Of a stretch of 62,939 bases of DNA, positions 35,282 through 50,611 are shown piece by piece. Each line of letters begins with the position of its first letter. Position 1 is the first letter of the stretch. The notes below the pieces were generated by a model that did no database searches, was not told where the DNA came from, and saw only the letters and a list, made by a program, of their open reading frames with translations. The DNA is taken from assembly GCA_016190755.1 (NCBI GenBank), contig JACPPY010000054.1, positions 1 through 62,939 on the forward strand. Direction: 5' to 3'. Source of the DNA: Chloroflexota bacterium. GTDB lineage: Bacteria > Chloroflexota > Dehalococcoidia > JACPPY01. Made by a program: the position numbers and the translations under genes.

Positions 35282-35702
35282 CCTGAACCTCCTGCGCAGC
35301 TTAGTTTTCGCAAATTTCTAGCCCATAGTACTATATAGTCGCTTCCAACACAAGGGGAATATCTCAACCCGCACATCAACCTTCATTGTCCCGGCTTCTT
35401 CTCTCTTAGACCGAATAGCCGACAGGAGGATCGGGCACCCGAAGCGGAAACCGGGCTCGGCTACCAGTGTGCACTTTCTCACTACAACATGTGTGTATCC
35501 AGAAATGCACCCATCGAGCCACTATATTGCAATGCAGCAACAATGATAACACGATTAACCGGCAGTAGTGGACGAGAGAGAAAAGTTATGATACAATCCG
35601 GTCAGCATCGTCGAGATTATTGTGGGCGATTACCTTCCTCGAGGAACCAACATGCTATTTGGCATCAGCCAAACACCTGACTTGCCAAGAAGGAGGAGGA
35701 TC

Positions 35703-36866
35703 ATGACGAGGACATTATGTGTAGCGGCTATTGTAACGGCTGTTGTAGTCGTATCTCTATCTGCATGTGGCAAACCGGCGCCCCAGCCTCCCCCGACTAC
35801 AGCCCCTGCACCCGCAGCCCCGTCTTCATCCCCAACGGCAGAGCCATCGCCAACAGCAAAACCAATATCCTCACCTTCGACCTGGCCCCTGGTCGACAGA
35901 CAGGCACAGGTTGAGGCCGCGGCCAAGAAGGAAGGGAAGGTTGTTCTCTGGTCACCTCACGCGAAACTTGCTCCACAATTTCTCGCCAAGTTCAAAGAGC
36001 GTTACCCCTGGTTGCAGCTAGAGACATGGGACGCTACAAGTACTGCCATCGTTGAGAAACTGGTTAGTGAGGCGAAGGTGGGCCGGTACAGTGTGGATGT
36101 GATAAGTGATGGAGAGCAGCAAGTCAGGTTGATTCCGAGAGATTTGCTGGCAAAGTATGATTGGCCTAACGCGGCAAAGTGGGCTTCGGAAGGGCTAGGG
36201 GGTACAGAGGGTTTCTACGTGCGCGACGTGATTGGCTTTTATGGCCCGGTCTACAACTCGAAGCTGGTCGTTGGCGCAGATATACCTAAGACCTGGAATG
36301 ATATCAAAGACCCAAAGTGGAAAGGCAAAACCTCCCTTGCCCTGGATGGCGACGAAGCACCTTTAATGCTAGCTGCCATGTGGGGTGGCAATGGGAAACT
36401 GGCATGGGAGGAGTCCTTTGCCTTCTGGCGAGAGGTGTCTAAGAACACTAAGCCAAAGACAGTGAAGGGATACACTGAGCCCACAAGGCTCCTCGGCGCC
36501 GGGGAATATGCGCTTTTTATCTGGGGGTCGTCTGGTGTCACTCTTCGAGCGCAAACAGATGGTGGGCTACCGGTAGCACATCCGCCGCTTGATCGTTTCC
36601 CAGGGACAGCGAAAGTGAAGACAATCTTGAAGAATGCGCCGCACCCCAATGCGGCACGGCTGCTTGTCGACTACATAACTTCGACCGAAGGATCAAGGAT
36701 CTACGCCGACGTTGTGGGTTATACTAGCCTCAATCCTGAAGCTGCCGGGGCATTGGCGAATCGCCGGTTTAAGGAGATTAAGGTTTACATAATGCCATCA
36801 GAGTTGGAAAGCACGGAAAACATGAAGAAATCCGCCGATTTCTGGGCCGCGCTGTTGGGTATATGA
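35703..36866 (+). CDS. ABC-transporter solute-binding lipoprotein (family 1, Fe3+/polyamine AfuA-PotD type), paralogue 1
   Basis: AGGAGGAGGA lies 3 nt before ATG 35703. MTRTLCVAAIVTAVVVVSLSACG lipobox, a P/A/T linker, then an SBP fold (VVLWSPH..., WKGK..., APHPNAARLLVDYITS). Confidence 0.88.
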   Translation: MTRTLCVAAIVTAVVVVSLSACGKPAPQPPPTTAPAPAAPSSSPTAEPSPTAKPISSPSTWPLVDRQAQVEAAAKKEGKVVLWSPHAKLAPQFLAKFKERYPWLQLETWDATSTAIVEKLVSEAKVGRYSVDVISDGEQQVRLIPRDLLAKYDWPNAAKWASEGLGGTEGFYVRDVIGFYGPVYNSKLVVGADIPKTWNDIKDPKWKGKTSLALDGDEAPLMLAAMWGGNGKLAWEESFAFWREVSKNTKPKTVKGYTEPTRLLGAGEYALFIWGSSGVTLRAQTDGGLPVAHPPLDRFPGTAKVKTILKNAPHPNAARLLVDYITSTEGSRIYADVVGYTSLNPEAAGALANRRFKEIKVYIMPSELESTENMKKSADFWAALLGI

Positions 36867-36916
36867 GAGGTGCGTCTTCTGAGTTGACAGGAACCAAACG
36901 ACATGGAGGAAGCAAA

Positions 36917-38335
36917 ATGACGACGACCGAAATTCTGTGTGATTTCTTGGTAGATACAGGTTATAGCGACATCCCAGGGGATGCTGTAAGAATAGCTAAG
37001 GAACGCATACTAGACACTGTAGGCGTGGCGCTTGCAGGAGCTGTCGAGCCGGCGGGTGCTGGCAGAATAGCAATAGAACTGGTAAAAGAGCTTGGCGGAT
37101 ACCCAACTTCTACGGTAATAGCAGGTGGCTTCAAAACATCTGCCCCTAATGCAGGGTTAGCCAATGGCACTGGTGCCGCTACTTTGGACTACGACGATAC
37201 CACCACTTATACAATCTGTCATTACAGCAGTTCTCTTATACCCGCCGTACTAGCACTAGCCGAAGAGACCAAGGTGTCGGGTAGGAAGCTTCTTGAGGCT
37301 TTCATCCTAGCCTGGGAAGCCGGAACTAGGATCGGTGAGTGTATGGGGGCCCCATCTTATTATCAGAGGGGCTTTCACACCCCCGGAACCTGGGCCTGCC
37401 TGGGCTGTGCCGCAGCCAGCGCAAAATTGCTGAATTGCAGTCGGGAACAGGTGAGGACAGCGCTGGCCGTTGCGGCCAGTGCGGCAGGCGGTATCAGGAA
37501 AACATATGGCACTAACACTAAGCCCTTGCACTCCGGCTATTCAGCAAGGAACGGAATCATAGCTGCGATGTTGGCCAAAAAGGGGTTTACTGCCGATAGG
37601 AATGTTCTGGACCGCGACCCCGAAGCCAAGGCTCACATGTGCTTTAGTTTCCCAGTAGTCTTTGCTGGAGAGGGGAATTACAACCTTAGCAAGGTAACTG
37701 AAGGGTTGGGTAAGTCATACAACTTAGTATCTAAGCCCATCGTCACAAAATTCCATCCAGGGCCAACTGCAATGGCACCCTTCATCGAGTTAGTGATAGA
37801 TATGATGAAGAGAAACTCGATCAGGGTTGACCAGGTTGAAAAGGTAGAGGTTAGAGCTATCCGTGAATGGGTCGAAGGCGTGTCACCCTTCTTGAGACCG
37901 CGGACAGGGGATGAAGCCAGATATAGTGCGCCCTATCAAATAGCTGTAGCGATGCTGGATGGCCAGGTTGGTATAGAGCAACACCGCGAAGAGCGTGTTC
38001 ATAGCTATGATGTCCAGGAGATGATGCAAAGGGTGCACCTTTCCGAGCTGAAGGGTAGTGAGGCGATCGTACGCAAACTAAGAGAGACTGCCAACATCGC
38101 CAAGATGGGTATTGGTGAATTGACCATCAAGCTTAAAGATGGACGGGAGTTTATTGGAAAAGTGGAACGGGGTCAGGGCTCATCGCCTCTCAAACGCCAA
38201 GATTTGCTTGCCAAGTATGAAGATTGTGCTAAGAGAGTGCTATCGTTGTCTGATGTAAAACGGTCAATCGAGTTAATTGAGAACCTGGAAAACCTGGACG
38301 ACGTTACCGAACTAATGGATCTACTTAGGGGATAA
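36917..38335 (+). CDS. MmgE/PrpD-family protein, paralogue 2
   Basis: GGAGGA lies 6 nt before ATG 36917. ILCDFLVDTGYSDIPGDAVRIAKERILDTVGVALAG..., TLDYDDT and KPLHSGYSARNGI. Confidence 0.9.
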   Translation: MTTTEILCDFLVDTGYSDIPGDAVRIAKERILDTVGVALAGAVEPAGAGRIAIELVKELGGYPTSTVIAGGFKTSAPNAGLANGTGAATLDYDDTTTYTICHYSSSLIPAVLALAEETKVSGRKLLEAFILAWEAGTRIGECMGAPSYYQRGFHTPGTWACLGCAAASAKLLNCSREQVRTALAVAASAAGGIRKTYGTNTKPLHSGYSARNGIIAAMLAKKGFTADRNVLDRDPEAKAHMCFSFPVVFAGEGNYNLSKVTEGLGKSYNLVSKPIVTKFHPGPTAMAPFIELVIDMMKRNSIRVDQVEKVEVRAIREWVEGVSPFLRPRTGDEARYSAPYQIAVAMLDGQVGIEQHREERVHSYDVQEMMQRVHLSELKGSEAIVRKLRETANIAKMGIGELTIKLKDGREFIGKVERGQGSSPLKRQDLLAKYEDCAKRVLSLSDVKRSIELIENLENLDDVTELMDLLRG

Positions 38336-38461
38336 ATTGAATGAATCCACTGTAACATATTCTAACCAAGTAGTACAGCGATTCAACCGCTATAGCTAGT
38401 CTCGGCAACACTGATAACACTATTAGCTCGACATGCTGACTTGCCAAGAAGGAGGAGGATT

Positions 38462-39649
38462 ATGACGAGGACGTTATATGTGGCGGCGATTGTAATGGCT
38501 GTTGTAGTCGTATCTCTATCTGCATGTGGCAAACCAGCGCCCCAGCCTCCCCCGACTACAGCCCCTGCACCCGCAGCCCCGTCTCCATCCCCAACGGCAA
38601 AGCCATCGCCAACCCCGCTCTCGCCGTCAACTTCGCCGTTGGTAAAACCATCTCCCTCATCTCCATCCCCAGTCGATAGACAGGCTCAGCTTGAGGCCGC
38701 GGCCAAGAAGGAAGGGAAGGTTGTTCTCTGGTCACCTCACGCGAAAATTGCTACAAAATTCCTCGCAAAATTTATGGAACGTTACCCCTGGTTGCAGCTA
38801 GAGACATGGGATGCTACAGGTACTGTCCTCATTGAAAAATTGGTAAGTGAGGCGAGGGTAGGCCGGCATAGCGTGGATGTGATGGCCATGGAAGAGCAGG
38901 GGGTCAGGCTGATTCCGAAGGATTTGCTGGCAAAGTATGACTGGCCTAGTGCGGCAAAGTATCCTTCAGAAGCGCTGGAGGGTACAGAGGGTTTGTACAT
39001 GCGGGACGCGCTGGCCTTCTACGGCCCGGTGTACAACACGAAGATAGTTCCCCCAACAAAGGCCCCACACTCGTGGCAGGACATGGCGGACCCAAAGTGG
39101 AAAGGCAAAACAGCTGTCCCTTTGGATGCCGACGAAGCACCTTTAATGCTAGCTGCCATGTGGGGCAGCAATGGGAAACTGGCATGGGAGGAGTCCTTTG
39201 CCTTCTGGCGAGAGGTGTCTAAGAACACTAAGCCAAAGACAGTGAAAGGATACAGCGAGCCCACAAGGCTCCTCGGCGCCGGGGAATACGAGCTTTTCCT
39301 CTGGGATGCGTCAAGTATCGCGCTTCAAGCGCAGTTAGCTGGGCTGCCGGTGGCGTTTGCCTCGGTTGATCGCTTCCCAGCGGCGGCGAGAATTAAGACA
39401 ATCTTGAAGAATGCGCCGCACCCCAATGCGGCACGACTGCTTGTCGACTACATAACTTCGACCGAAGGATCAAGGATCTACGCCGACGTTGGGGCTTACA
39501 TCAGTCTCAACCCTGAAGCTGCCGAGGCATTACTGAATCGCCAAATGAAAGAGACAGGCACCAAGCTTTATATAGTGCCCACCGAATTGGAAAGCATGGA
39601 GAATTTGAAGAAATCCGCCGATTTCTGGGCCGCGCTACTGGGTATATAA
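38462..39649 (+). CDS. ABC-transporter solute-binding lipoprotein, paralogue 2 (mosaic near-identity to paralogue 1)
   Basis: Same RBS, signal peptide and lipobox as paralogue 1 (MTRTLYVAAIVMAVVVVSLSACG). Long nucleotide blocks are nearly identical to 35680-36720. Confidence 0.88.
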   Translation: MTRTLYVAAIVMAVVVVSLSACGKPAPQPPPTTAPAPAAPSPSPTAKPSPTPLSPSTSPLVKPSPSSPSPVDRQAQLEAAAKKEGKVVLWSPHAKIATKFLAKFMERYPWLQLETWDATGTVLIEKLVSEARVGRHSVDVMAMEEQGVRLIPKDLLAKYDWPSAAKYPSEALEGTEGLYMRDALAFYGPVYNTKIVPPTKAPHSWQDMADPKWKGKTAVPLDADEAPLMLAAMWGSNGKLAWEESFAFWREVSKNTKPKTVKGYSEPTRLLGAGEYELFLWDASSIALQAQLAGLPVAFASVDRFPAAARIKTILKNAPHPNAARLLVDYITSTEGSRIYADVGAYISLNPEAAEALLNRQMKETGTKLYIVPTELESMENLKKSADFWAALLGI

Positions 39650-39778: not shown

Positions 39779-41524
39779 TTGGAGCCAGCGAGTTTGAGCA
39801 CACGGTTCTTGGATGCCTGCCGTGCCCTAAAGCAAAGGGGGCGCGAGAGGTGTGTCTTCTTAGTGATAGGTTTGCCCCTGGTATTCCTCGTTGTCGTGCC
39901 GCTGTTTCTATTGGTACTCAATAGTTTCCGAGATATCGGCTTTGGTGAGGTTGCGGTCGCTCTCAACAAGTTCACTCTGGATAACTATATCACTGCCTAC
40001 ATGAACCCGAGGACATGGAGGATGCTGGGGAACAGCATCGTCTTTGCCGTTGGCTCGATGGTTGTTGCTTTCGTATTGGGTGGTGTAATGGCGTTCCTCG
40101 CGGAGCGGACCGACTCTCCCTTCCGACGTTTCACCTACGCACTAATGTTCATGCCACTCATCATACCAGGAATGCTGCAGGCGGTAGCCTGGGTTCTCCT
40201 ATTGAGCCCCAGTATTGGTCTGGTGAACAAGCTGTGGTCTGCCATCGGATTCGGCACCCCTCTCCTTAATGCCTACAGCATGCCGGTGATGTGGTGGGTG
40301 CAGGGCGTCATTTTGGCGCCTCTCACCTTTATCATGCTCGGAGCGGCCTTTCGCCGGATGGACCCTGCCCTGGAGGAAGCCGCCATCACCTGCGGTGCGC
40401 CACTGAGCAGGGTGGCAACACAGGTTACTCTCAAGGTCATCCTGCCGGCGATTGTTGGCGTGGCCCTGCTCCAGTTTGTGCGGGCCCTCGAAGCTTTGGA
40501 GGTGCCCTTGCTACTGGGTCTTAGCGGAGACGTTATGGTGTTTAGCGCCAACATCCTGCTTTCAATAACGATGAGGTTCCCGCCAGCGTATGGCCTCGGT
40601 TTTACCTATTCCATAACCCTTATCAGTCTCACTGTCTTCGGACTTTTCGTCTATCAGAGGGTGGTGCGAAGAGGCGAGAGATATGCAGTAGTCACCGGCA
40701 AGGGATATCGCCCTCGTATTATTAAACTTGGCAGATGGAAGGCACTTGCAGTTGGTTTCCAGATATTCTTCGCGGTCGTCGCCATCGGCCTTCCGGTCCT
40801 CGTGTTGCTGTGGGCCTCACTACTGCCCGCCTATCAGGCTCCCTCAATGGAGATGCTGTCCAAGGTCAGCCTCAAGAATTACTCCATGGTATTCGATCGT
40901 CCCGACATGCTGCATATGCTCCAAAATACTGCCTTATTGGCGGGTGTCGTTAGTGTCTGTGTCATGTTCCTGGCCCTCTTGCTCTCATGGGTCATTTTCC
41001 ATATGAAGATAAAGGGATCTGGCTTTCTTGACAGCCTAGCTTTCATCCCTTACGCCATACCCTCAGTCGTCACGGGCATTGCCTTCATGGTACTGTTCCT
41101 TGCCTTCCCTAACCCTGTGTACGGAACCATCTGGATCCTGGTGATCGCCTATATCGTAGTTGAGCTGCCCTACGGCACCCGTTTTACCCATGCCGGTCTC
41201 TTGCAGGTCCATAAGGAGATGGAGGAGGCAGGCAAGATCTCTGGCGCGAGCTTCTGGAGAGTGTTCTTCCATGTCATCGTGCCGATTATGAAGCCTTCGC
41301 TTACTGGCGGTGGGCTATATGTATTCATCATATCTGTCAAGTACTTTTCCATAGCCGCCATCCTGTCGTCGTCTCAAAGTATCGTGCTCTCTGTGCAAAT
41401 CTGGCAACTGTGGAACGAAGGTGGGCTGGGGGCGTTAGCGGCTTTGGCCATAATCATGATCGCAGGGCTTAGCGTTCTCACGCTACTGGGAGGGGTGCAC
41501 AGAATAGAACGGATTGTTGGCTAA
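39779..41524 (+). CDS. Fused double ABC-transporter permease (2 x BPD_transp_1, FbpB/AfuB type), paralogue 1
   Basis: 581 aa with about 12 TM segments and two EAA-like loops (RRMDPALEEAAITCGA; VHKEMEEAGKISGAS). Confidence 0.9.
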   Translation: MEPASLSTRFLDACRALKQRGRERCVFLVIGLPLVFLVVVPLFLLVLNSFRDIGFGEVAVALNKFTLDNYITAYMNPRTWRMLGNSIVFAVGSMVVAFVLGGVMAFLAERTDSPFRRFTYALMFMPLIIPGMLQAVAWVLLLSPSIGLVNKLWSAIGFGTPLLNAYSMPVMWWVQGVILAPLTFIMLGAAFRRMDPALEEAAITCGAPLSRVATQVTLKVILPAIVGVALLQFVRALEALEVPLLLGLSGDVMVFSANILLSITMRFPPAYGLGFTYSITLISLTVFGLFVYQRVVRRGERYAVVTGKGYRPRIIKLGRWKALAVGFQIFFAVVAIGLPVLVLLWASLLPAYQAPSMEMLSKVSLKNYSMVFDRPDMLHMLQNTALLAGVVSVCVMFLALLLSWVIFHMKIKGSGFLDSLAFIPYAIPSVVTGIAFMVLFLAFPNPVYGTIWILVIAYIVVELPYGTRFTHAGLLQVHKEMEEAGKISGASFWRVFFHVIVPIMKPSLTGGGLYVFIISVKYFSIAAILSSSQSIVLSVQIWQLWNEGGLGALAALAIIMIAGLSVLTLLGGVHRIERIVG

Positions 41525-41577
41525 GCATCCCTGTGCCAGAGCCATTCGCCGACGGCCATGGTGCCTGGATCTGGGAG

Positions 41578-41611
41578 AAAGGCGCAAAAAATCAACCGCC
41601 TTTTTGAATTT
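41578..41611 (+). terminator. Candidate intrinsic terminator after permease 1
   Basis: AAAGGCG-caaaaaatcaac-CGCCTTT followed by TTGAATTT. Confidence 0.45.
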
Positions 41612-41837
41612 GCGATTTACGGCTTAATATCAAGGCGACTACCACCGAAATCCTGCAAAATCCCGCAATAAGAACAATCGTTCCCTCAAAGCTCTCACAA
41701 AATGTTTTGCGGTAAGTTCCCTCCCATTGCACTCGGCCTTTCCAGAAAGTTGTGCTCGTCAAAGCAGAGTAATTGAGTTAGGGCATTTGTCGCCATCATG
41801 CTGGGTGACTGTTTGTGACTTTAGCGGAATTATGTAC

Positions 41838-41866
41838 TTGACAGCAGTTCATTTTTTGGTTACCAT
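41838..41866 (+). promoter_or_regulatory. Candidate sigma-70-type promoter for the selenoprotein operon
   Basis: TTGACA - 17 nt (T-rich) - TACCAT. It sits in the only AT-rich stretch of the cluster, about 140 nt upstream of ATG 42008. The same TTTTTG(G)TTACCAT architecture occurs upstream of thrS. Confidence 0.45.
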
Positions 41867-42007
41867 CAAGACACTAAACGACTTATTGTCCTAATGATGG
41901 AACCCCAGGAACGCAGCATAGGGCGATTTGCTGTTTATGCGTCAGGATTGCGGAACAAATGTGTTAGCCATCATAAGACTGCATTAGCTATATGAGGAGG
42001 ATTGTCT

Positions 42008-42562
42008 ATGTGCGAAGCAGCTGTGACTTTGGTGAACCCAGTTGGGCATCCCCGCAATGAGGACCCAATAAAAGAGGTTGCGTGGCCAGTAGACCTGAGC
42101 CATAAGACAGTGATCTTGATCGACAACACCAAGCCGAAGGCTGACCTAATACTTGAATTGTTCGCAGGGGCCATTCAGGAGCATTTCCCCGGAGTGCGAG
42201 TGATCCACAGGCGAAAATCTGGCGCGGTTTCCCCAGCACCATTCCTGCATGAACTGAATGGCATGGCCGACCTAGCCATCAATGCAGTGGCGGATTGAGG
42301 GGGCTGCACAACGTGGAGTGTCCACGACGCAGTCAAGTTACGTCAGCGGGGAATTCCAGCGGTGGTTGTCTGTAGCCATGACTTCAGCGCCCTGGCACGA
42401 AGCGTGGCACGGGCCTGTGGTGTCGATGACCCTCGACTGGTTATCCTGCCCCACCCGCTTGGCTCTCTCCCTGACCAGGCCATAAAGACCATAATAAGAC
42501 GCGGACATGACGAGATCATGTCTGTGCTTACCGGTAAGAAGAGATACACGGAGGTGGCGTAA
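42008..42562 (+). CDS. Candidate selenoprotein, UxxC (U-G-G-C) motif, UGSC-family-like; in-frame TGA at 42296-42298 read as Sec
   Basis: ORFs 42002..42298 and 42362..42562 share a frame, and the 63 nt between them carry no stop. The joined product is ...MADLAINAVAD-U-GGCTTWSVHDAVKLRQRGIPAVVVCSHDF...RLVILPHPLG.... GAGGAGG lies 8 nt before ATG 42008. A SECIS-like hairpin follows the TGA. Confidence 0.65.
42304..42332 (+). other. Candidate bacterial SECIS hairpin
   Basis: CUGC-ACAA-CGUGGA-GUG-UCCACG-AC-GCAG. It starts 6 nt after the UGA. The apical GUG loop is 22 nt from the U of the UGA. Confidence 0.5.
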
Positions 42563-43647
42563 TGGCTGTGGCCGATGAAATCGTAGTGTCTGGGTCTTAC
42601 GATGCGATCTACGAATTCTGTCTGCAACAGGGGTGGACTGACGGCCTTCCTGTTGTACCGCCGACACGCGAACGAGTGGGTGCTATGCTTGAGTGGACTG
42701 ACAGGGATGCCGATGAAGTGGTCGGTTCTATCCCGCCACTCAATGGCCATGCAAGCATACGAAAGATCGCTGCAAACGCAGTGATGGCAGGATGTCGTCC
42801 CAATTATCTGCCTGTTGTTATTACTGCGGTGGAAGCCCTGTTGGACAAGGGGTTCAATCTGGACGCCGTGCAGCCGACAACTGGACCAATAACACAATTG
42901 GTAATCGTCAATGGACCCGTCGCCCGAGAGTTGGGCATCAATGCTGGGACAACGGCCTTCGGCCCGGGATGGCGCAGTAACGCCACCATTGGTCGAGCCA
43001 TACGGTTGATCCTCGTGAACATTGGTGGCGCGAAACCCGGCGAGGTGAATCAAAAGACCCAAGGGCAGCCGGGCATGTTCAGCTTGTGTGCTGCCGAAAA
43101 TGAGGCCCGCAGCCCCTGGGAACCGTTCCATGTCGAACATGGCATTCCAGCGGAACACAGCGCAGTGACCGTCTTTGCCACATTCCCTGGATATGACATC
43201 CACGAGGGGGAAACAGCAAACGATATCTTGACAAACCTCTCTCGTGAGACTGGGGGCATGACACGTAAGCTTGTCAACGGAGGGGAGCATGTTGTCGCAC
43301 TATGCCCGGAACACGCTCAGATCCTAGCAAGTGCAGGCTTTTCAAAGCAGCAGGTAAAAGAATTCCTTTGGCAGCATGCTGGAGCTCCCCTGGCTCACCT
43401 TGTGCCATATTTCCAGCGACTTGCTCGCCTACGGCGGGCAAATGTATTTCAAGTAGAAAGCGGAGACGACACCTGGCTGCCTATTGCCGATCGACCGGAC
43501 CAGATCCATGTGATTGTGGTTGGTGGAACGTCGCGTCACTCGACCTATTTCCCCTGCTTCAGCTACTCTCGGTTTGCATCTAGGCGCATCACAAATCATT
43601 GTGGCCAGGCCATTCGCTCAGTCAAGGATCTGTTCCGGAACAGCTGA
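42562..43647 (+). CDS. Uncharacterised conserved-looking protein, translationally coupled to the selenoprotein gene
   Basis: 361-aa ORF. Its ATG overlaps the upstream TAA (TAATG). Motif-like stretches: GWTDGLPVVPPT, AANAVMAGCRPNYLPVV, QPTTGPITQLVIVNGP, FGPGWRSNATIGRAIRL, CAAENEARSPWEPFHVEHG. I cannot assign a family. Confidence 0.8.
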   Translation: MAVADEIVVSGSYDAIYEFCLQQGWTDGLPVVPPTRERVGAMLEWTDRDADEVVGSIPPLNGHASIRKIAANAVMAGCRPNYLPVVITAVEALLDKGFNLDAVQPTTGPITQLVIVNGPVARELGINAGTTAFGPGWRSNATIGRAIRLILVNIGGAKPGEVNQKTQGQPGMFSLCAAENEARSPWEPFHVEHGIPAEHSAVTVFATFPGYDIHEGETANDILTNLSRETGGMTRKLVNGGEHVVALCPEHAQILASAGFSKQQVKEFLWQHAGAPLAHLVPYFQRLARLRRANVFQVESGDDTWLPIADRPDQIHVIVVGGTSRHSTYFPCFSYSRFASRRITNHCGQAIRSVKDLFRNS

Positions 43648-43751: not shown

Positions 43752-44945
43752 ATGGAAAGGAAAAGGCTGTCAGTCCTGGTCGCCCTTGTTCTACCGGCTC
43801 TGGTTTTGTTCGCGTCGTCTTCCATAGTCGCTTGCTCTAGCTCAACTACACCACGACCGTCTTCGTCCTCGACGGCGCAACCATCGGCCATACCTTCATC
43901 TTCACCGTCGCCAACAGTCAAGCCATCACCTCTGCCCTCGCCTTCGGCCTCACCTTCACCGACAGTGAATCGGCAGGAGCAGCTTGAAGCTGCTGCCAAG
44001 AAAGAAGGGGCTGTCACGTTCTGGGCAACTTATGCGACAGAGGCGAACAAATATCTCGCACCATTCAAGGAGCGTTACCCCTGGCTAAAAGTGGAAGTCT
44101 GGCAGTCTACGAATGCGCCCATCGTCGACAAAATGCTTGCTGAGGCCAAGGCAAGTAAGTATAGCGTGGATGTCTTTGGCTTAGCTGAAGAAACTGCGGT
44201 GCAAGTCCCAGCCAGTTTCTATGCCAAGTATGATTGGCCTAGTGCGGCGAAATGGCCTGCCGAGACGCGGCAACAAGAGGGGTTGTACCTGCGCACGACT
44301 GTCAACGCGCAGGGCCCGGTTTATAATACAAAGGCAGTTCCCGCGGCGGAGATCCCGAAAACCTGGGAGGACATGGCAAACCCGAGATGGAAGGGGAGAA
44401 CCGTCGTTTCCCTTGAGACTGACGAAGCCGTACTGGTACTAGCCGCCATGTGGGGGGAAGGAAAGGAAGGGAAGCTGGACTGGGACAGGGCCTTGAGCTT
44501 CTGGCAGAACTTCTTCAAGAACACTCAGCCGAAGACTGGGTCGGGATTTACAACTCCAACCAAGCTCATGGTCGCCGGGGAATACGATCTCTTCCCATAT
44601 GGCTCGGTCAATGCGGCAGTGAGGATGAAGGCGACCGAAGGGTCACCGCTAGGGTTTATTCCTGTTCAGTATCCGGCAAGACCGTCCGTGCTGGCAATTG
44701 CCAAGGATGCTCCTCATCCTAATGCGGCAAGGCTATTGGCCGACTACATGACTTCGGACGAAGGAAGTGTGCTGTTCTCAAATACTATGTATATGGCTTC
44801 CCTTAGTCCGGCTGCTGAAAACTCGATACCCCTCCGTATGTACGCTGAGATGGGTCTGAAGCGTTACATATTGCCTGCGGCCTTGATGACTGCCGAGAAT
44901 ACGAAGAAATCTGGCGAGTTATGGAAGAAACTACTCGGTGTCTAG
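43752..44945 (+). CDS. ABC-transporter solute-binding lipoprotein, paralogue 3 (more divergent)
   Basis: AAGGAGGA lies before ATG 43752. Lipobox IVAC, an S/P-rich linker, and the same fold landmarks as paralogues 1 and 2 (ERYPWL.VE.W, YDWPSAAKW, WKG(K/R)T, APHPNAARLL.DY.TS). Confidence 0.88.
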   Translation: MERKRLSVLVALVLPALVLFASSSIVACSSSTTPRPSSSSTAQPSAIPSSSPSPTVKPSPLPSPSASPSPTVNRQEQLEAAAKKEGAVTFWATYATEANKYLAPFKERYPWLKVEVWQSTNAPIVDKMLAEAKASKYSVDVFGLAEETAVQVPASFYAKYDWPSAAKWPAETRQQEGLYLRTTVNAQGPVYNTKAVPAAEIPKTWEDMANPRWKGRTVVSLETDEAVLVLAAMWGEGKEGKLDWDRALSFWQNFFKNTQPKTGSGFTTPTKLMVAGEYDLFPYGSVNAAVRMKATEGSPLGFIPVQYPARPSVLAIAKDAPHPNAARLLADYMTSDEGSVLFSNTMYMASLSPAAENSIPLRMYAEMGLKRYILPAALMTAENTKKSGELWKKLLGV

Positions 44946-45063
44946 TAGGAGTCGAGATAGACTGACTGCAGGGTGATGTCTCCACAGACGCAAGTCCTGA
45001 GTGGCTTGAGAGGGCTCATACATGTGGTTTCGCACCTTGAAGACCGCCCATCATTTGGGGGGC

Positions 45064-46800
45064 ATGAATTTATCTGCCCGTTTCCTGCATGGTTACGGTA
45101 CCCTGAAGCGGAGTAAGGGTGAAGTCTCCATACTTGTCGTTGCCGGGGCTTTTTTGGGAGTCTTCGTCGTATTCCCTCTCCTGTTGCTGGTACTCAACAG
45201 CTTCCGGGATATCGGTTTGGGTGAAATTGGGCTTGCCTTTGACAAGCTTACCTTAGGAAACTATTCCATCGCCTACATGAACCCAAGAACGTGGAAAATG
45301 CTGTGGGATAGCCTTGTCTTTGCCGGTGGTGCCGCGGTTGTCGCTTTCTTGCTGGGTGGTGGCATGGCATTTATTACCGAGCGGACTAATGCTCCCTTCC
45401 GGCACCTCACCTACGGGTTGATGTTCGTGCCCCTCATCGTTCCGGGAATGCTGCTCTCTATAGGCTGGATCTTCCTGCTCAGCCCGAAAATCGGCCTGCT
45501 AAACAAGGCGTGGATGTCGATCGGGTTTCATACACCTTTTTTGGACGTCTACAGTATGCCTGTGATGTGGTGGATCCAAGGAGTAATGGAGTCTCCGCTT
45601 ACGTTTCTTATGCTGGGTGCCGCTTTTAGGCGCATGGATCCGTCCCTGGAAGAAGCCGCTATTGCTTGTGGAACCTCGAGAGTTAATTGTGCCATTAGGA
45701 TAACGCTGAAGCTAATGCTTCCGGCAATCGCAGGGGTGGCTCTCCTCCAGTTTGTACGTGGTCTTGAAGCTATGGAGGTGCCGCTGATTCTTGGCCTCAA
45801 TTCCGGTATCAAGGTATTCAGTGTTAACATTTTGCTCTCGCTTCAGGAGGTCTCACCGCCTGACTATGCTCTCGGCTTTACCTACGGCATAAGCCTGATC
45901 TGCCTTACTGTTGCGGGGCTCTTCATTTATCTCAGGATGATGAGACAATCCGAGAAGTATGTAGTTGTAACAGGCAAGGGATATAGGCCGGGGATTATTA
46001 ACCTCGGCAAATGGAAGTTTGCGGCAGCGGGTTTCCAGATCTTCTTCGGAGTCGCGGCAATAGGGCTTCCTCTTCTGGTATTGATCTGGGTCTCACTACT
46101 GCGTAGCTACGAGGTTCCCTCGATAGAGATGTTGTCCCAGATGAATCTGGATAAGTACACGTCAATAATTGGTCGGCCCGGGATGACGTCCGTGATTCTG
46201 AACACTGTTGTAGTAGCGGCCATTGCCAGCGTCTGTGTCATGTTCTTATCAATCCTGCTTTCCTGGATCGTTTTCCATATGAAGATAAAGGGGGGTGCGA
46301 TTCTTGACGGATTGGCTTTTATTCCCTATGCCATACCCTCAATAGCTATGGCTATTGCTTTCATGGTTCTGTTCCTTTCCTTCAGGAACCCGATCTACGG
46401 CACCATCTGGATTTTAGTAATAGCGTACGTCATACGCTTCATGCCCTACGGCACGCGCTTCACCCATGCCGGCCTGTTGCAGATCAAGAAGGAGTTGGAG
46501 GAAGTAGCTCTCACGGCTGGCGCGAGTTACTGGAAAATGTTCCTCCGTATCATCATCCCTATTATGAAACCCTCGCTTGTCGGGGGTGGTCTGTATGTGT
46601 TCATTCTGTCTGTGAAGATTTTCCCCATTGCCGCTCTCCTCTCGTCGCCCAACAGTAAGGTGCTTGCGGTAGAAATCTGGCAAATGTGGAATGTGGGAAT
46701 GTTTGGGGAGGTTTCTGCTCTCGCTGTGATGATGATCGGGGGTCTGAGCATTCTCACCCTTCTGGTTGGAACACGGACGCTGGGCCAGATTACAGGCTAG
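45064..46800 (+). CDS. Fused double ABC-transporter permease, paralogue 2
   Basis: Aligns along its length with 39779..41524 (MNLSARFL... versus MEPASLSTRFL...). GGGGGG lies before ATG 45064. The track start at 45022 is the alternative. Confidence 0.9.
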   Translation: MNLSARFLHGYGTLKRSKGEVSILVVAGAFLGVFVVFPLLLLVLNSFRDIGLGEIGLAFDKLTLGNYSIAYMNPRTWKMLWDSLVFAGGAAVVAFLLGGGMAFITERTNAPFRHLTYGLMFVPLIVPGMLLSIGWIFLLSPKIGLLNKAWMSIGFHTPFLDVYSMPVMWWIQGVMESPLTFLMLGAAFRRMDPSLEEAAIACGTSRVNCAIRITLKLMLPAIAGVALLQFVRGLEAMEVPLILGLNSGIKVFSVNILLSLQEVSPPDYALGFTYGISLICLTVAGLFIYLRMMRQSEKYVVVTGKGYRPGIINLGKWKFAAAGFQIFFGVAAIGLPLLVLIWVSLLRSYEVPSIEMLSQMNLDKYTSIIGRPGMTSVILNTVVVAAIASVCVMFLSILLSWIVFHMKIKGGAILDGLAFIPYAIPSIAMAIAFMVLFLSFRNPIYGTIWILVIAYVIRFMPYGTRFTHAGLLQIKKELEEVALTAGASYWKMFLRIIIPIMKPSLVGGGLYVFILSVKIFPIAALLSSPNSKVLAVEIWQMWNVGMFGEVSALAVMMIGGLSILTLLVGTRTLGQITG

Positions 46801-47330: not shown

Positions 47331-47648
47331 ATGGCCATATACGAGTACATCTGTCCCAAATGCAGCAACGAGTTTGAGCTGATGAGGCCTATGAGCCAGT
47401 CGAGCGAACCGGCGACCTGTCCCAGGTGCAAGTCGCGGGCACAGAAACGTATATCTTCCTTCGGCTCCAAGACAGGCTTCTACCTAAAGGTGCCCGAGAA
47501 GGCGCCATTCCGCCCGAAGGTAGGCGCTTCCAAGAAGGTTAGCACTGCGACGAAGGCGAGCACCGCAAGCAAGGCGGCTTCTGCCCGCAAAGCCAGCACA
47601 GCGAAGAAAGCCAGTGCTGGAGGTAAAGCCAAAGCCGCCAAGAAGTAG
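47331..47648 (+). CDS. FmdB-family zinc-ribbon protein with a Lys/Ala-rich histone-H1-like C-terminal tail
   Basis: MAIYEYICPKCSNEFELMRPMS...ATCPRCKS (CxxC...CxxC), then KKVSTATKASTASKAASARKASTAKKASAGGKAKAAKK. Confidence 0.85.
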   Translation: MAIYEYICPKCSNEFELMRPMSQSSEPATCPRCKSRAQKRISSFGSKTGFYLKVPEKAPFRPKVGASKKVSTATKASTASKAASARKASTAKKASAGGKAKAAKK

Positions 47649-47651
47649 GGC

Positions 47652-48038
47652 GTGAGCATATTTGTTGTCCACGAGCACCATGCTACCCATCTGCATTGGG
47701 ACTTCCGCCTGGAGATGGAGGGGGTGCTGAAAAGCTGGGCCGTACCGAAAGGCCCTCCTACAGCAGCCGGAGTCAGGCGCCTGGCGGTGCAAGTGGAGGA
47801 CCATCCGTTGGACTATGCCTCCTTTTCAGGTGTGATACCGGAAGGGTCGTACGGCGCTGGCAAGGTAGAGATCTGGGACCAGGGCAACTACGACCTTCTG
47901 GCGCGTGACCCTGACCGGCTGCTGTTCATACTCCGGGGACGCAAATTAAAAGGCAGCTACGTGCTTGTGCATACGAGCGGCAAGAACTGGATAATGTTGA
48001 AGAGAAGGGCAAGGCAGCATGATAACCAGATTAGCTAA
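47652..48038 (+). CDS. Stand-alone LigD-type 3'-phosphoesterase (PE) domain protein
   Basis: FVVHEHHATHLHWDFRLEMEGVLKSWAVPKGPP...RLAVQVEDHPLDYASFSGVIPEGSYGAGKVEIWDQG is the LigD PE signature. GTG start 3 nt after the previous stop. Confidence 0.85.
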   Translation: MSIFVVHEHHATHLHWDFRLEMEGVLKSWAVPKGPPTAAGVRRLAVQVEDHPLDYASFSGVIPEGSYGAGKVEIWDQGNYDLLARDPDRLLFILRGRKLKGSYVLVHTSGKNWIMLKRRARQHDNQIS

Positions 48039-48859: not shown

Positions 48860-50611
48860 ATGGCCATACAGGAAAAGAGGGTGCTGGCGACCGAGGAACT
48901 AGAGAAGATGAGACACTCCGCTTCACATGTCATGGCGGAGGCGGTGTCTCTCATTTTCCCGGAGACGCGGTTCGGTATAGGGCCGGCCATTGAGGACGGC
49001 TTTTACTACGATTTCGAGCTGCCGCGCCCTTTGGTCAACGAAGACCTGCCGGTCATCGAAGCCAGGATGAGGGAAATAATAGCCCGCAATGAGCCCTTCA
49101 TCCGGGAGGAGGTGGCCAAGGAAGAAGCTGAAAAGATATTCCTGGCCCAGCCGTACAAGCTTGAGCTTATACGGGAGCTTCCCGATGCAAAGGTTTCCAC
49201 CTACCGTCAGGGGGCTTTCGTCGACCTGTGCCGCGGCCCGCATGTCAAGTCCACGGGTCAAATAGGGGCCTTCAAGCTGATGTCCATAGCCGGCGCCTAT
49301 TGGCGCGGCGAAGAAACCAGGCCCATGCTGCAGCGCATATATGGCGTGGCCTTCGCAACCGAGGAGCAGCTCCAGGACTACCTGCACAAGCTGGAGGAGG
49401 CGCAACGGCGCGACCACCGCAGGCTGGGCAAGGAACTTGAGCTATACAGCATCCATGACGAGGCCGGGCCGGGATTGGTGATGTGGCATCCCAACGGGGC
49501 CGCGGTGCGCCGGGCAATCGAGGACTTCTGGAAGGACGAGCATGCCCTGCGAGGGTATGAACTCGTTTACACGCCGCACATCGCCAAGGTGGACCTGTGG
49601 AAGACCTCGGGCCACTGGGAGTTCTACCGCGAGAATCTATATTCACCAATGGATATCGACGAGCAGGAGTACATCGTAAAGCCGATGAACTGCCTGGGGC
49701 ATATAATAATATATAAGACTCAGAAGCGCAGCTATCGCGACCTGCCGTTAAGGTACGCCGAGTTGGGCACTGTCTATCGCTACGAGCGGTCGGGCGTGCT
49801 GCACGGCCTGACCAGGGTCCGCGGGTTCACCCAGGACGACGCACATATCTTCTGCACGCCGGAGCAACTGGAAGATGAGATAGCCGGCGTCGTCGAGCTG
49901 GTCAGGTTCATGATGAAGACCTTCGGGTTCGAGCACTATGATATGTACCTGTCCACCAGGCCGGAGAAGTATGCCGGCTCGCTGGAAGGATGGAAGGTGG
50001 CCACTGATGCCCTGGCGAATGTCTTGCAGAGGCTGGGCATAGAGTACAAGGTAGACCCGGGAGAAGGCGTGTTCTACGGCCCCAAGATAGACACGAAGCT
50101 GCACGACGCACTGGGCAGGGAGTGGCAGGGCCCGACGATACAGGTGGATTTCAACCTGCCGCAGCGCTTCAACGTGACCTATGTAGCCGCCGACAGCAAG
50201 GAGCAGCAGGTATTCATGGTGCACCGCGCAGTGCTGGGAAGCATGGAGCGGTTCATGGGCTGCCTGATCGAGCACTACGCCGGCGCTTTCCCGGCGTGGC
50301 TGGCGCCGGTCCAGGCGGTGGTCATTCCCATCGCCGACCGCCACCTGGAATATGCCCGCCGCGTGGAGTCAGAGCTCAAGCGCGAACGGTTCAGGGTGCG
50401 CGTGGACTCCCGGTCGGAGAGGATGAACGCCAAGATACGTGAGGCGCAATTGCAGAAGGTGCCTTACATGCTCGTGGTCGGCGACAAAGAGTCACAGTCA
50501 GGCAACGTCTCGGTCAGGCTGCGCACGGGCAAAGACCTCGGCTCAATGTCTCTGTCCGACTTCAAGGCGAAGGCCGGTGATACGATCGCTACCCGGGCGC
50601 TTGAAGTTTGA
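48860..50611 (+). CDS. thrS: Threonine--tRNA ligase (short form without an N-terminal TGS domain)
   Basis: 583 aa. MRHSASHVMAEAV (editing-domain HxxxH), class II motifs and a C-terminal anticodon-binding domain. Confidence 0.98.
   Translation: MAIQEKRVLATEELEKMRHSASHVMAEAVSLIFPETRFGIGPAIEDGFYYDFELPRPLVNEDLPVIEARMREIIARNEPFIREEVAKEEAEKIFLAQPYKLELIRELPDAKVSTYRQGAFVDLCRGPHVKSTGQIGAFKLMSIAGAYWRGEETRPMLQRIYGVAFATEEQLQDYLHKLEEAQRRDHRRLGKELELYSIHDEAGPGLVMWHPNGAAVRRAIEDFWKDEHALRGYELVYTPHIAKVDLWKTSGHWEFYRENLYSPMDIDEQEYIVKPMNCLGHIIIYKTQKRSYRDLPLRYAELGTVYRYERSGVLHGLTRVRGFTQDDAHIFCTPEQLEDEIAGVVELVRFMMKTFGFEHYDMYLSTRPEKYAGSLEGWKVATDALANVLQRLGIEYKVDPGEGVFYGPKIDTKLHDALGREWQGPTIQVDFNLPQRFNVTYVAADSKEQQVFMVHRAVLGSMERFMGCLIEHYAGAFPAWLAPVQAVVIPIADRHLEYARRVESELKRERFRVRVDSRSERMNAKIREAQLQKVPYMLVVGDKESQSGNVSVRLRTGKDLGSMSLSDFKAKAGDTIATRALEV

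What the first reader, a model, noticed from the sequence alone, without database searches (positions are those of the whole stretch)
42562..43647. Uncharacterised 361-aa protein translationally coupled to the selenoprotein: possible two-subunit redox enzyme of unknown function
The start codon of this ORF overlaps the selenoprotein stop (TAATG), which implies coupled translation and stoichiometric co-production. I cannot place it in any family I know. It has strongly motif-like stretches: GWTDGLPVVPPT, AANAVMAGCRPNYLPVV, QPTTGPITQLVIVNGP, FGPGWRSNATIGRAIRLILVNIGG and CAAENEARSPWEPFHVEHG.

The Sec partner carries U-x-x-C ... GIPAVVV ... ILPHPLG. From memory, this resembles the Sec region of glycine/betaine/sarcosine reductase protein B and D-proline reductase PrdB (U/C-x-x-C ... 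GIP.V ... PHPLG). If that resemblance is real, the pair could be a minimal GrdB/PrdB-like reductive module with a new partner subunit. Its substrate might be whatever the flanking binding proteins import. This is speculation.
Basis: inference. Interest (0 to 1): 0.75.

Follow-up and report, generated by a model that had tools for sequence, protein, structure and literature searches.

The report
Unnamed partner of the UGSC selenoprotein
This 361-residue protein belongs to a very large, unnamed family with no solved structural relative that almost always sits beside, or is fused to, the "UGSC" selenoprotein, so the two probably form a selenium-dependent reductase whose substrate is still unknown.

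Summary
ORF 42562-43647 (361 aa) is a real gene, and its ATG overlaps the TAA of the upstream gene (TAATG).

The upstream gene (42008-42562) has an in-frame TGA followed by a conserved SECIS-type hairpin. It is a UGSC-family selenoprotein (Pfam PF24696), described since 2005-2008 with no known function.

The partner matches nothing in Pfam, NCBIfam or PDB sequences. A confident AlphaFold model (pLDDT 92.6) has no significant PDB fold match. The family still has about 7,900 clusters at 50% identity, all labelled "hypothetical protein".

The pairing is close to obligate in both directions:
- 74 of 80 partner-seeded genome loci carry UGSC.
- 25 of 26 UGSC-seeded metagenome loci with enough flank carry the partner.

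Natural fusions occur in both orders. Other partner genes are fused to a thioredoxin-reductase-like domain or to the ferredoxin-thioredoxin-reductase catalytic subunit, each with a Sec-UGSC gene just upstream.

UGSC proteins weakly but repeatedly match GrdB-family models (24 of 38, best E 9e-7). The partner is not GrdE/PrdA-like, and its mid-chain Cys is not conserved.

Verdict: a two-subunit Sec/thiol-dependent reductase of unknown substrate. The flanking transporter and PrpD context is not conserved. It is a new member of a known but uncharacterised pair.

The parts
42562..43647 (+). Partner gene (361 aa) from an unnamed family. It has conserved motifs GWTDGLPVVPPT, NAVMAGC(78), VQPTT, NGP, NATIGRAIRL, NIGG, C(176)AENE..PWEPFHVEHG, CPEHA and GGTSRHS. 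It is the proposed substrate-binding or catalytic subunit.
   Evidence: ORF and translation. Homologues: at least 7,986 and 7,916 clusters at 50% identity. No hit in Pfam, NCBIfam or PDB sequences. AF2 pLDDT 92.6, pTM 0.93. No significant PDB fold match.
42008..42562 (+). UGSC-family selenoprotein gene (184 aa including Sec97, motif U-G-G-C). Its stop codon overlaps the partner's start codon (TAATG).
   Evidence: Translation. With U read as C it scores PF24696 E 3.3e-39, 135 bits against a cut-off of 25, and NF041046 123.7 bits against a cut-off of 125.
42296..42298 (+). In-frame TGA read as selenocysteine.
   Evidence: The aligned codon is TGA in all but two of the adjacent UGSC homologues at the 80 genome loci; the two exceptions have Cys (Sphingomonas, Natrialba).
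42302..42334 (+). SECIS-type hairpin. The core stem is CGUGGA / UCCACG (42312-42317 / 42321-42326) with apical loop GUG, and it starts 14 nt after the UGA. An outer stem GGCUGC / GCAGUC extends it.
   Evidence: Fold. On 45 homologues the five innermost-but-one pairs are always paired. There are 11 G-C to C-G double changes at one pair, and 0 of 500 shuffles reach the observed covariation.
41994..42000 (+). Shine-Dalgarno sequence (GAGGAGG) 7 nt upstream of the UGSC ATG.
   Evidence: Read directly from the sequence.
42550..42556 (+). Shine-Dalgarno sequence (GGAGGTG) for the partner gene, lying inside the end of the UGSC gene.
   Evidence: Read directly from the sequence.
41838..41866 (+). Promoter-like site (TTGACA-17-TACCAT) in the 483-nt non-coding gap upstream of UGSC. 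It is a possible own promoter for the two-gene unit, but the evidence is weak.
   Evidence: Consensus scan: 10 of 12 matches. The number of such sites in the region is not above the shuffle expectation.

Best explanation
The two genes encode the two subunits of one selenol/thiol-dependent oxidoreductase, most likely a reductase acting on a small, probably carboxylated, substrate. In some organisms the two subunits are a single fused polypeptide.

The 361-aa partner is the large subunit that binds the substrate. Its invariant polar residues are T35, N140, R145 and E179. D27, C78, T106, K172, E250 and H251 are nearly invariant. The UGSC protein is the small redox subunit. Its Sec97-x-x-Cys100 attacks the partner-bound substrate, or an oxidised Cys78 on the partner, and ends as an internal selenenyl-sulfide. 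A disulfide reductase then re-reduces it: a thioredoxin-reductase-type flavoprotein using NAD(P)H, a ferredoxin-thioredoxin-reductase-type Fe-S protein, or the cell's general thioredoxin system.

Shown here: the gene pairing and fusions, Sec decoding, the distant GrdB-family relationship of UGSC, the lack of any described relative for the partner, and the fusions to reductase modules. Inferred: physical complex formation, the direction of electron flow, which residue is the nucleophile, and reductase chemistry. Unknown: the substrate.
For: 1. Translational coupling in the window: the TAATG overlap plus an internal Shine-Dalgarno sequence.

2. Pairing in partner-seeded loci. 72 of 80 genome loci by tblastn, and 74 of 80 by HMM, carry a UGSC gene. 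It is nearly always directly adjacent on the same strand, upstream or downstream.

3. Reciprocal test. Loci were picked only by a DNA pattern for D-U-G-S-C-T-S-W. Of 26 with at least 1.7 kb on both sides, 25 carry a partner gene within 1.5 kb on the same strand. Of 79 with at least 700 nt downstream, 68 do.

4. Natural fusions in both orders. These include Sec-containing single ORFs in 10 of the 68 UGSC genes extracted from the genome loci (for example Robertmurraya sp. 2P01SA) and full-length Cys forms (P0132, P0135, P0153).

5. The AF2 model of the fusion P0135 has pTM 0.88 over 560 residues despite a disordered linker. That implies confident packing of the two domains.

6. Partner fused to a thioredoxin-reductase-like domain (Pyr_redox_2 E 6e-41, CAVC motif), or to the ferredoxin-thioredoxin-reductase catalytic chain (PF02943 E 2e-21). 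In each case a Sec-UGSC gene lies immediately upstream.

7. 24 of 38 UGSC proteins match the GrdB model TIGR01917 (best E 9.3e-7). In the window protein the match covers the Sec region (residues 90-154 against model positions 339-398 of 431).

8. Among 27 full-length fusions, 3 of the 4 that lost Sec/Cys97 also lost partner E250. Only 2 of the 23 that keep it did. This hints that the PEHA motif works with the Sec site.
Against: - There is no biochemical evidence of any kind.
- The partner has no recognisable cofactor or redox motif. Its only well-conserved Cys (C78) is absent in at least one fusion whose UGSC motif is intact (P0201).
- Some fusions have a UGSC-like domain with no Cys or Sec at all (P0138, P0144, P0179, P0259). 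The partner can therefore exist without UGSC redox chemistry.
- 5 or 6 of the 80 partner loci have no UGSC gene within 8 kb.
- I could not obtain model coordinates or a PAE map, so the Sec-to-active-site geometry is untested.
- The fusion model rests on only 18 sequences.
Confidence: 0.55

Rival explanations
1. A true minimal GrdB/PrdB-type Stickland-like reductase. In this reading the partner is a self-cleaving pyruvoyl proenzyme like GrdE/PrdA, with the mid-chain Cys176 (...SLC|AAENE...) as the cleavage and pyruvoyl-forming residue. Sec then cleaves a C-N bond of an amino acid bound to the pyruvoyl group.
For: UGSC is distantly related to the Sec region of GrdB/GrdF/GrdH/PrdB. The partner has a mid-chain Cys in a conserved motif, which would give two halves of about 19 and 20 kDa.
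Against: - Cys176 is not conserved across the family. It is V, A or G in P0132, P0168, P0191 and P0172.
- None of 38 partner proteins hits the GrdE/PrdA family or any other model at E<=1 in Pfam or NCBIfam.
- UGSC scores are far below the GrdB cut-off (11.6 against 602 bits for the window protein).
- No grdA/C/D or prdC-type genes were seen next to the pair.
- The hosts include aerobes such as Sphingomonas, Natrialba and Betaproteobacteria.
Confidence: 0.07
2. The partner is a non-redox enzyme, such as a hydratase, isomerase or hydrolase acting on organic acids. UGSC is only a redox-sensitive regulatory or protective subunit that keeps Cys78 reduced or switches activity with the redox state. 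It is not part of the catalytic cycle.
For: Some fusions keep the partner intact but carry a UGSC-like domain with no Cys or Sec. The faint fold resemblances are to class I fumarate hydratase, RidA/YjgF, cyanuric acid hydrolase and PrpD, all non-redox enzymes of carboxylates. Neighbours are often organic-acid catabolism genes: TctC or TRAP transporters, enoyl-CoA hydratase, CoA-transferase and PrpD.
Against: The fold matches are not significant (best E 2e-3, TM 0.25-0.29), and hhalign against PrpD gives 1.4% probability. Sec is retained in about 97% of adjacent UGSC genes; selenocysteine is costly and typically marks a catalytic redox residue. Dedicated fusion to TrxR-like and FTR modules implies a stoichiometric electron supply.
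Confidence: 0.25
3. UGSC is a general thioredoxin-like antioxidant selenoprotein, as first suggested in the literature. The partner is merely a frequent neighbour or a specific reductase for it, with no shared substrate chemistry.
For: The 2008 description called UGSC a likely Trx-fold redox protein (PMC2398784). It has a UxxC motif.
Against: The near-obligate, bidirectional adjacency and the fusions in both orders argue for a dedicated pair. In the AF2 fusion model the UGSC domain matches flavodoxin-like alpha/beta proteins such as azoreductase, MdaB and NQO1, not thioredoxins. The partner has no nucleotide- or flavin-binding motif detectable by Pfam. The TrxR and FTR modules are fused to the partner while UGSC stays a separate gene.
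Confidence: 0.1

Closest known systems
UGSC-containing selenoprotein family (Pfam PF24696, NCBIfam NF041046; Zhang & Gladyshev 2005-2008) and its 'UGSC/Unknown_1' fusion
   Same: The upstream gene is a full-length match to PF24696. It has the U-G-x-C motif, an in-frame TGA and a SECIS hairpin. The partner is very probably the 'Unknown_1' domain that the 2008 GOS paper reported fused to UGSC.
   Different: The identity with 'Unknown_1' could not be checked, because the figure is held only as an image. [quoted passage not shown] Here the partner family is very large and near-obligately paired, and the UGSC domain looks flavodoxin-like. The window protein has UGGC rather than UGSC, and it scores 1.3 bits under the NCBIfam equivalog cut-off.
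Selenoprotein B of glycine/sarcosine/betaine reductase (GrdB/GrdF/GrdH) and D-proline reductase PrdB
   Same: Both have a U-x-x-C redox motif followed by G-[IV]-P and PHP-type motifs. UGSC proteins give repeated weak-to-moderate HMM matches to the Sec region of these models. Both work with a second, larger subunit and depend on an external dithiol or NAD(P)H-linked reductant (established knowledge for Grd/Prd; inferred here from the fusions).
   Different: UGSC is about 180 aa and matches only about 60 positions of the 431-position GrdB model. The partner is unrelated to the pyruvoyl proenzymes GrdE/PrdA at HMM level. No GrdA, GrdC/D or PrdC genes are nearby. Many hosts are aerobes.
Thioredoxin-system-dependent reductases (TrxR or FTR, then a CxxC carrier, then a target enzyme such as Msr, ArsC or peroxiredoxin)
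   Same: The three-part logic is visible in gene fusions: a TrxR-like or FTR-catalytic module, a small UxxC protein and a larger enzyme subunit.
   Different: The carrier is not a thioredoxin fold, and the target enzyme belongs to no known reductase family.

Membership tests
UGSC family (PF24696 / NF041046), for the upstream gene | Full-length match to the family HMM above the curated cut-off | tested here: met
   PF24696 scores 135.2 bits against a cut-off of 25, covering model positions 2-171 of 172. NF041046 scores 123.7 bits against 125, just under the stricter equivalog cut-off.
UGSC family (PF24696 / NF041046), for the upstream gene | Sec (or Cys)-Gly-x-Cys motif encoded by an in-frame TGA with a downstream SECIS hairpin | tested here: met
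   U-G-G-C at residues 97-100. The TGA is conserved in all but two of the adjacent homologues. The hairpin shows covariation.
Unnamed partner family (probably 'Unknown_1' of PMC2398784), for ORF 42562-43647 | Full-length homology and conserved motifs (GWTDGLP..PPT, NAVMAGC, NATIGRA, AENE..PW, PEHA, GG.G.HS) | tested here: met
   44-69% identity over more than 90% of the length to 120 listed homologues. 28 columns are invariant in 110 sequences.
Unnamed partner family (probably 'Unknown_1' of PMC2398784), for ORF 42562-43647 | Adjacent or fused to a UGSC gene | tested here: met
   The window pair overlaps by 1 nt. 74 of 80 and 25 of 26 loci are paired in the two directions of the test.
Unnamed partner family (probably 'Unknown_1' of PMC2398784), for ORF 42562-43647 | Sequence identity with the published 'Unknown_1' alignment | not testable with these tools
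   Figure S1A is stored only as an image.
GrdB/PrdB selenoprotein B systems | Sec protein matches the GrdB/PrdB family models above cut-off | tested here: not met
   TIGR01917 gives 11.6 bits against a cut-off of 602 for the window protein. The best family member reaches E 9.3e-7, and only over the Sec region. Pfam GRDB was not hit.
GrdB/PrdB selenoprotein B systems | Local homology of the U-x-x-C region | tested here: met
   Of 38 UGSC proteins, 24 hit TIGR01917, 14 hit GrdF, 13 hit TIGR01918, 9 hit GrdH and 3 hit PrdB.
GrdB/PrdB selenoprotein B systems | Partner is a GrdE/PrdA-type pyruvoyl proenzyme with a conserved cleavage-site Cys | tested here: not met
   No Pfam or NCBIfam hit for 38 partners at E<=1. 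Cys176 is replaced in several members. No profile-profile search against PF09338 was possible.
GrdB/PrdB selenoprotein B systems | Accessory genes (grdA, grdC/D, or prdC/D/E/F) in the locus | tested here: not met
   The window's neighbours are PrpD-family, solute-binding and permease genes. None of the 115 immediate neighbours fell in the listed top families.
Thioredoxin-fold redox proteins (literature suggestion for UGSC) | Thioredoxin fold | tested here: inconclusive
   In the AF2 fusion model the UGSC domain matches flavodoxin-like alpha/beta proteins (probability 0.97-1.0 but low TM). No thioredoxin appears in the top 50.

The most novel reading that the evidence does not exclude
The UGSC-partner pair is a widespread, previously unrecognised class of selenocysteine-dependent reductase. 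It combines a GrdB-like Sec module with a catalytic subunit that has no solved structural relative, uses no pyruvoyl group, and draws electrons from TrxR- or FTR-type modules. It would carry out a reductive bond cleavage on organic acids in aerobic and facultative soil, freshwater and marine bacteria, which would explain one of the most abundant orphan selenoproteins in aquatic metagenomes.
Probability: 0.35. Interest if true: 0.8.

Novelty: new member of a known kind. Interest (0 to 1): 0.6.

Why it matters
[quoted passage not shown] A 2026 review still lists it as uncharacterised (PMC13188914).

This work shows that UGSC is essentially never alone. It comes with a dedicated partner of about 360 aa that no protein-family library names, and that partner is sometimes wired directly to thioredoxin-reductase or ferredoxin-thioredoxin-reductase modules.

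That turns an orphan selenoprotein into a testable two-subunit enzyme and names the protein to co-express with it. It also identifies experimental entry points: the Cys-type pair in the culture-collection strain Natrialba asiatica DSM 12278, a second Cys-type pair in a Sphingomonas MAG, and a Sec-type fusion in Robertmurraya sp. 2P01SA.

The partner is also a good target for a new Pfam family and for structure determination.

Tried and rejected
- **Pyruvoyl-proenzyme idea for the partner (Cys176 as cleavage site).** Rejected because Cys176 is not conserved and there is no GrdE/PrdA signal.
- **Relationship of the partner to the neighbouring PrpD/MmgE family**, suggested by faint Foldseek hits. 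hhalign gives 1.4% probability.
- **Partner against UGSC** by hhalign: no relationship.
- **The search for homologous proteins with the UGSC protein (U read as C).** It found nothing, because gene callers split these genes at the TGA. One capped search was lost this way.
- **PDB sequence and profile searches for UGSC and for the partner.** No meaningful hit, so no GrdB or PrdB sequence detectable by these searches appears to be in the PDB copy.
- **Rfam gathering-threshold scan and tRNA scan of the window.** Nothing, and no tRNA-Sec.
- **Search for a conserved third gene.** Neighbourhoods are heterogeneous. TctC is in 14 of 115 immediate neighbours. Within 8 kb, PrpD is in 9 and enoyl-CoA hydratase in 10 of 80 loci, and DUF6282 in 5 of 80. 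The window's own ABC-transporter context is not conserved.
- **Sec-to-Cys78 distance in the fusion model.** I could not measure it, because coordinates and PAE are not returned.
Full report
**1. The observation**

The ORF 42562-43647 (+) is present exactly as described: 361 aa, an ATG start and a TGA stop. The sequence GTGGCG-TAATG-GCT places the upstream TAA at 42560-42562 and the ATG at 42562-42564. A GGAGGTG Shine-Dalgarno sequence lies inside the end of the upstream gene.

The upstream frame from the ATG at 42008 (itself preceded by GAGGAGG) is open to 42562 apart from one TGA at 42296-42298. It reads AVAD-U-GGC-TTWSVHD...GIPAVVV...ILPHPLG. TGA is a normal stop elsewhere in the window; the partner gene ends with it. 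The long antisense ORF 42343-43290 has no support.

**2. The selenoprotein is a known family**

With U replaced by C, the upstream protein matches Pfam PF24696 'UGSC family' end to end (E 3.3e-39). It also matches NCBIfam NF041046 at 123.7 bits, 1.3 bits under that model's equivalog cut-off.

UGSC-containing proteins were described by Zhang and Gladyshev. [quoted passage not shown] It was 'a selenoprotein of unknown function' in 2007 (PMC1976440) and is still listed among uncharacterised families in a 2026 review (PMC13188914).

**3. Sec decoding is well supported**

In the genome loci fetched through the partner, the adjacent UGSC homologue has TGA at the aligned codon in all but two cases. 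Those two have Cys (a Sphingomonas MAG and Natrialba asiatica).

A hairpin with core CGUGGA-GUG-UCCACG starts 14 nt after the UGA. On 45 homologues the five innermost-but-one pairs are always paired. One pair shows 11 G-C to C-G double changes, two other pairs show 2 each, and none of 500 column shuffles reaches the observed covariation. Slid registers collapse to 20-48% pairing. G and U in the apical loop are invariant. This is the expected anatomy of a bacterial SECIS element. No tRNA-Sec or Sec-machinery gene lies in the window.

**4. The partner is a very large family with no name**

The partner has no hit in Pfam-A, NCBIfam or PDB sequences, either as a single sequence or when 38 members are scanned individually or as a profile. 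Yet the word-indexed search saturated at 7,986 homologues. An exhaustive profile search found 7,916 clusters at 50% identity with E<=1e-3, of which 2,488 have E<=1e-30. Every source name recovered is 'hypothetical protein'.

An AlphaFold2 model built from 110 sequences is confident (pLDDT 92.6, pTM 0.93). Foldseek against the PDB gives no match at E<=1e-3. The best matches have TM 0.25-0.29 and are class I fumarate hydratase alpha, RidA/YjgF, cyanuric acid hydrolase and PrpD. A profile-profile test against PrpD is negative (1.4% probability). The overall architecture therefore has no solved relative, although individual sub-domains may.

Residues invariant across the broad family include T35, N140, R145 and E179. 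D27, C78 (in NAVMAGC), T106, K172, E250 and H251 (in PEHA) are nearly invariant.

**5. The pairing is real and close to obligate**

The genome collection holds at least 599 partner loci. The 80 fetched span Rokubacteria, Dehalococcoidia and other Chloroflexota, Betaproteobacteria, Binatia, Deltaproteobacteria, Acidobacteriota, Poribacteria, Actinomycetes, a Bacillaceae isolate and a haloarchaeon.

A UGSC gene is found in 72 of these loci by tblastn and 74 by HMM. It is almost always directly adjacent on the same strand, either upstream or downstream of the partner. One of the six loci without it is cut off by a contig end.

For the reciprocal test I picked metagenome loci solely with a degenerate DNA pattern for D-U-G-S-C-T-S-W. 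Of 26 loci with at least 1.7 kb on both sides, 25 carry a partner gene within 1.5 kb downstream on the same strand. Of 79 with at least 700 nt downstream, 68 do.

Ten of the 68 UGSC genes extracted from the genome loci are single ORFs that read through the TGA from UGSC, via a linker of about 30-50 residues, into the partner. Robertmurraya sp. 2P01SA is one example. Full-length Cys-type fusions exist (P0132, P0135, P0153), as do fusions in the opposite order (P0123, P0129) and tandem partner-partner proteins.

An AF2 model of the fusion P0135 has pTM 0.88 over 560 residues. 

**6. Evidence for redox chemistry**

Two further architectures are informative. P0175 is partner plus a C-terminal thioredoxin-reductase-like flavoprotein (Pyr_redox_2 E 6e-41, with a CAVC redox motif). 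P0234 is the ferredoxin-thioredoxin-reductase catalytic chain (PF02943 E 2e-21) plus partner. In both cases a Sec-UGSC gene, which gene callers split at the TGA, lies immediately upstream, overlapping or 4 nt away.

So three parts recur together: an electron-input disulfide reductase, a small UxxC protein and the partner.

Separately, 24 of 38 UGSC proteins hit the GrdB model TIGR01917 (best E 9.3e-7), 14 hit GrdF, 13 hit TIGR01918, 9 hit GrdH and 3 hit PrdB. For the window protein the match covers residues 90-154 against model positions 339-398 of 431, which is the Sec region.

In the fusion model the UGSC domain resembles flavodoxin-like alpha/beta proteins rather than thioredoxins.

**7. 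What it is not**

It is not a member of the Grd/Prd systems. Scores are two orders of magnitude below the cut-offs. The partner shows no GrdE/PrdA signal, and the tempting mid-chain Cys176 is replaced by V, A or G in several members. No grdA/C/D or prdC-type genes are nearby, and many hosts are aerobes.

The idea that the flanking transporters define the substrate is also not supported. The 115 immediate neighbours fall into 101 Pfam families. The commonest is TctC (14), which is very abundant in Betaproteobacteria anyway. Within 8 kb, a PrpD-family gene occurs in 9 of the 80 loci and enoyl-CoA hydratase in 10. DUF6282 occurs in 5, sometimes between UGSC and the partner. The overall flavour is organic-acid catabolism, most clearly in Robertmurraya: PrpR-type activator, enoyl-CoA hydratase, PrpD, the fusion, TRAP transporter, DUF6282, an NAD-binding protein and Ldh_2. 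This is suggestive only.

**8. Most likely mechanism**

I think the pair is a two-subunit Sec/thiol-dependent reductase (confidence 0.55). The partner binds the substrate. Sec97 of UGSC acts as the nucleophile or reductant and is resolved by Cys100 into a selenenyl-sulfide. TrxR-, FTR- or thioredoxin-type donors then recycle it.

One weak internal hint supports this: 3 of the 4 fusions that lost Sec/Cys97 also lost partner E250, against 2 of the 23 that keep it.

The main rival (0.25) is a non-redox enzyme with UGSC as a redox guard or switch. It is favoured by the existence of fusions whose UGSC-like domain has no Cys or Sec. A genuine pyruvoyl Stickland-type enzyme (0.07) and a generic antioxidant carrier (0.10) are less likely.

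**9. Novelty and score**

The pair as an object was glimpsed in 2008, and the Sec subunit is a named family, so this window holds a new member of a known but uncharacterised kind. New here are:
- the size of the partner family;
- the near-obligate bidirectional linkage;
- the lack of any described family or solved fold;
- the GrdB-region homology shown by profile scans;
- the TrxR and FTR fusions.

Interest is 0.6. A selenoprotein specialist would not be surprised that UGSC has a partner. However, the result makes a twenty-year-old orphan directly testable.

Noticed in passing
window 32954-34381 (-), 36863-38335 (+): Two MmgE/PrpD-family paralogues lie within 10 kb of the pair. Both have the N- and C-terminal domains (E 1e-56 to 1e-60).
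   Followed up: partly
window 35622-36866, 38441-39649, 43752-44945 (SBPs); 39779-41524, 45022-46800 (permeases): There are three paralogous solute-binding proteins (SBP_bac_6/8/1/11 types; at least the latter two have long Pro/Ser/Thr-rich lipoprotein-like N-termini). There are also two paralogous permeases of about 585 aa with a double BPD_transp_1 domain. None of the ten flanking ORFs scanned against Pfam is an ABC ATPase. It looks like a duplicated importer cassette surrounding the UGSC pair.
   Followed up: partly
L003:3013-3861, L006:1061-1918, L022:5803-6678, L015:10944-11840, L054:7410-8240: A DUF6282 (PF19799) gene recurs beside the pair in 5 of 80 genome loci. In three of them it sits between UGSC and the partner. 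It has no PDB sequence relative and may be an occasional third component.
   Followed up: partly
L081:4435-7088, L082:487-3140; L083:970-2935, L084, L085: These loci carry partner genes fused to a thioredoxin-reductase-like domain, or to the ferredoxin-thioredoxin-reductase catalytic chain. Each has a Sec-UGSC gene directly upstream, which gene callers split into two ORFs at the TGA.
   Followed up: yes
P0126, P0172, P0176, P0257 (about 710-740 aa): These are tandem partner-partner fusion proteins from a more divergent branch. P0126 and P0172, whose sequences were read, keep the MAGC Cys in both halves, and P0172 has lost Cys176 in both halves.
   Followed up: no
P0138, P0144, P0179, P0259: These UGSC-partner fusions have lost both the Sec/Cys and the resolving Cys in the UGSC-like domain. 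Three of the four have also changed the partner's PEHA motif to PYHA or PFFA.
   Followed up: partly
L007, L022, L023, L031, L036, L042, L047, L055, L069: Several genomes carry two or three UGSC-partner pairs within one 17-kb locus. These paralogue arrays suggest diversification of substrate specificity.
   Followed up: no
window 41525-42007: A 483-nt non-coding gap lies upstream of the UGSC gene and holds a promoter-like site (TTGACA-17-TACCAT at 41838-41866). There is no Rfam hit.
   Followed up: partly
window 47331-47648 and 47652-48038 (+): By eye, the first is a small CxxC...CxxC zinc-ribbon protein with a Lys/Ala-rich tail, and the second is an ORF that starts HATHLHWDFRLE and looks like a LigD-type 3'-phosphoesterase. 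Neither was checked with any tool.
   Followed up: no
window 31066-32358 (-), 48860-50611 (+): Two housekeeping genes flank the region: serine hydroxymethyltransferase (E 3e-157) and threonyl-tRNA synthetase. This indicates a chromosomal rather than a mobile context.
   Followed up: no
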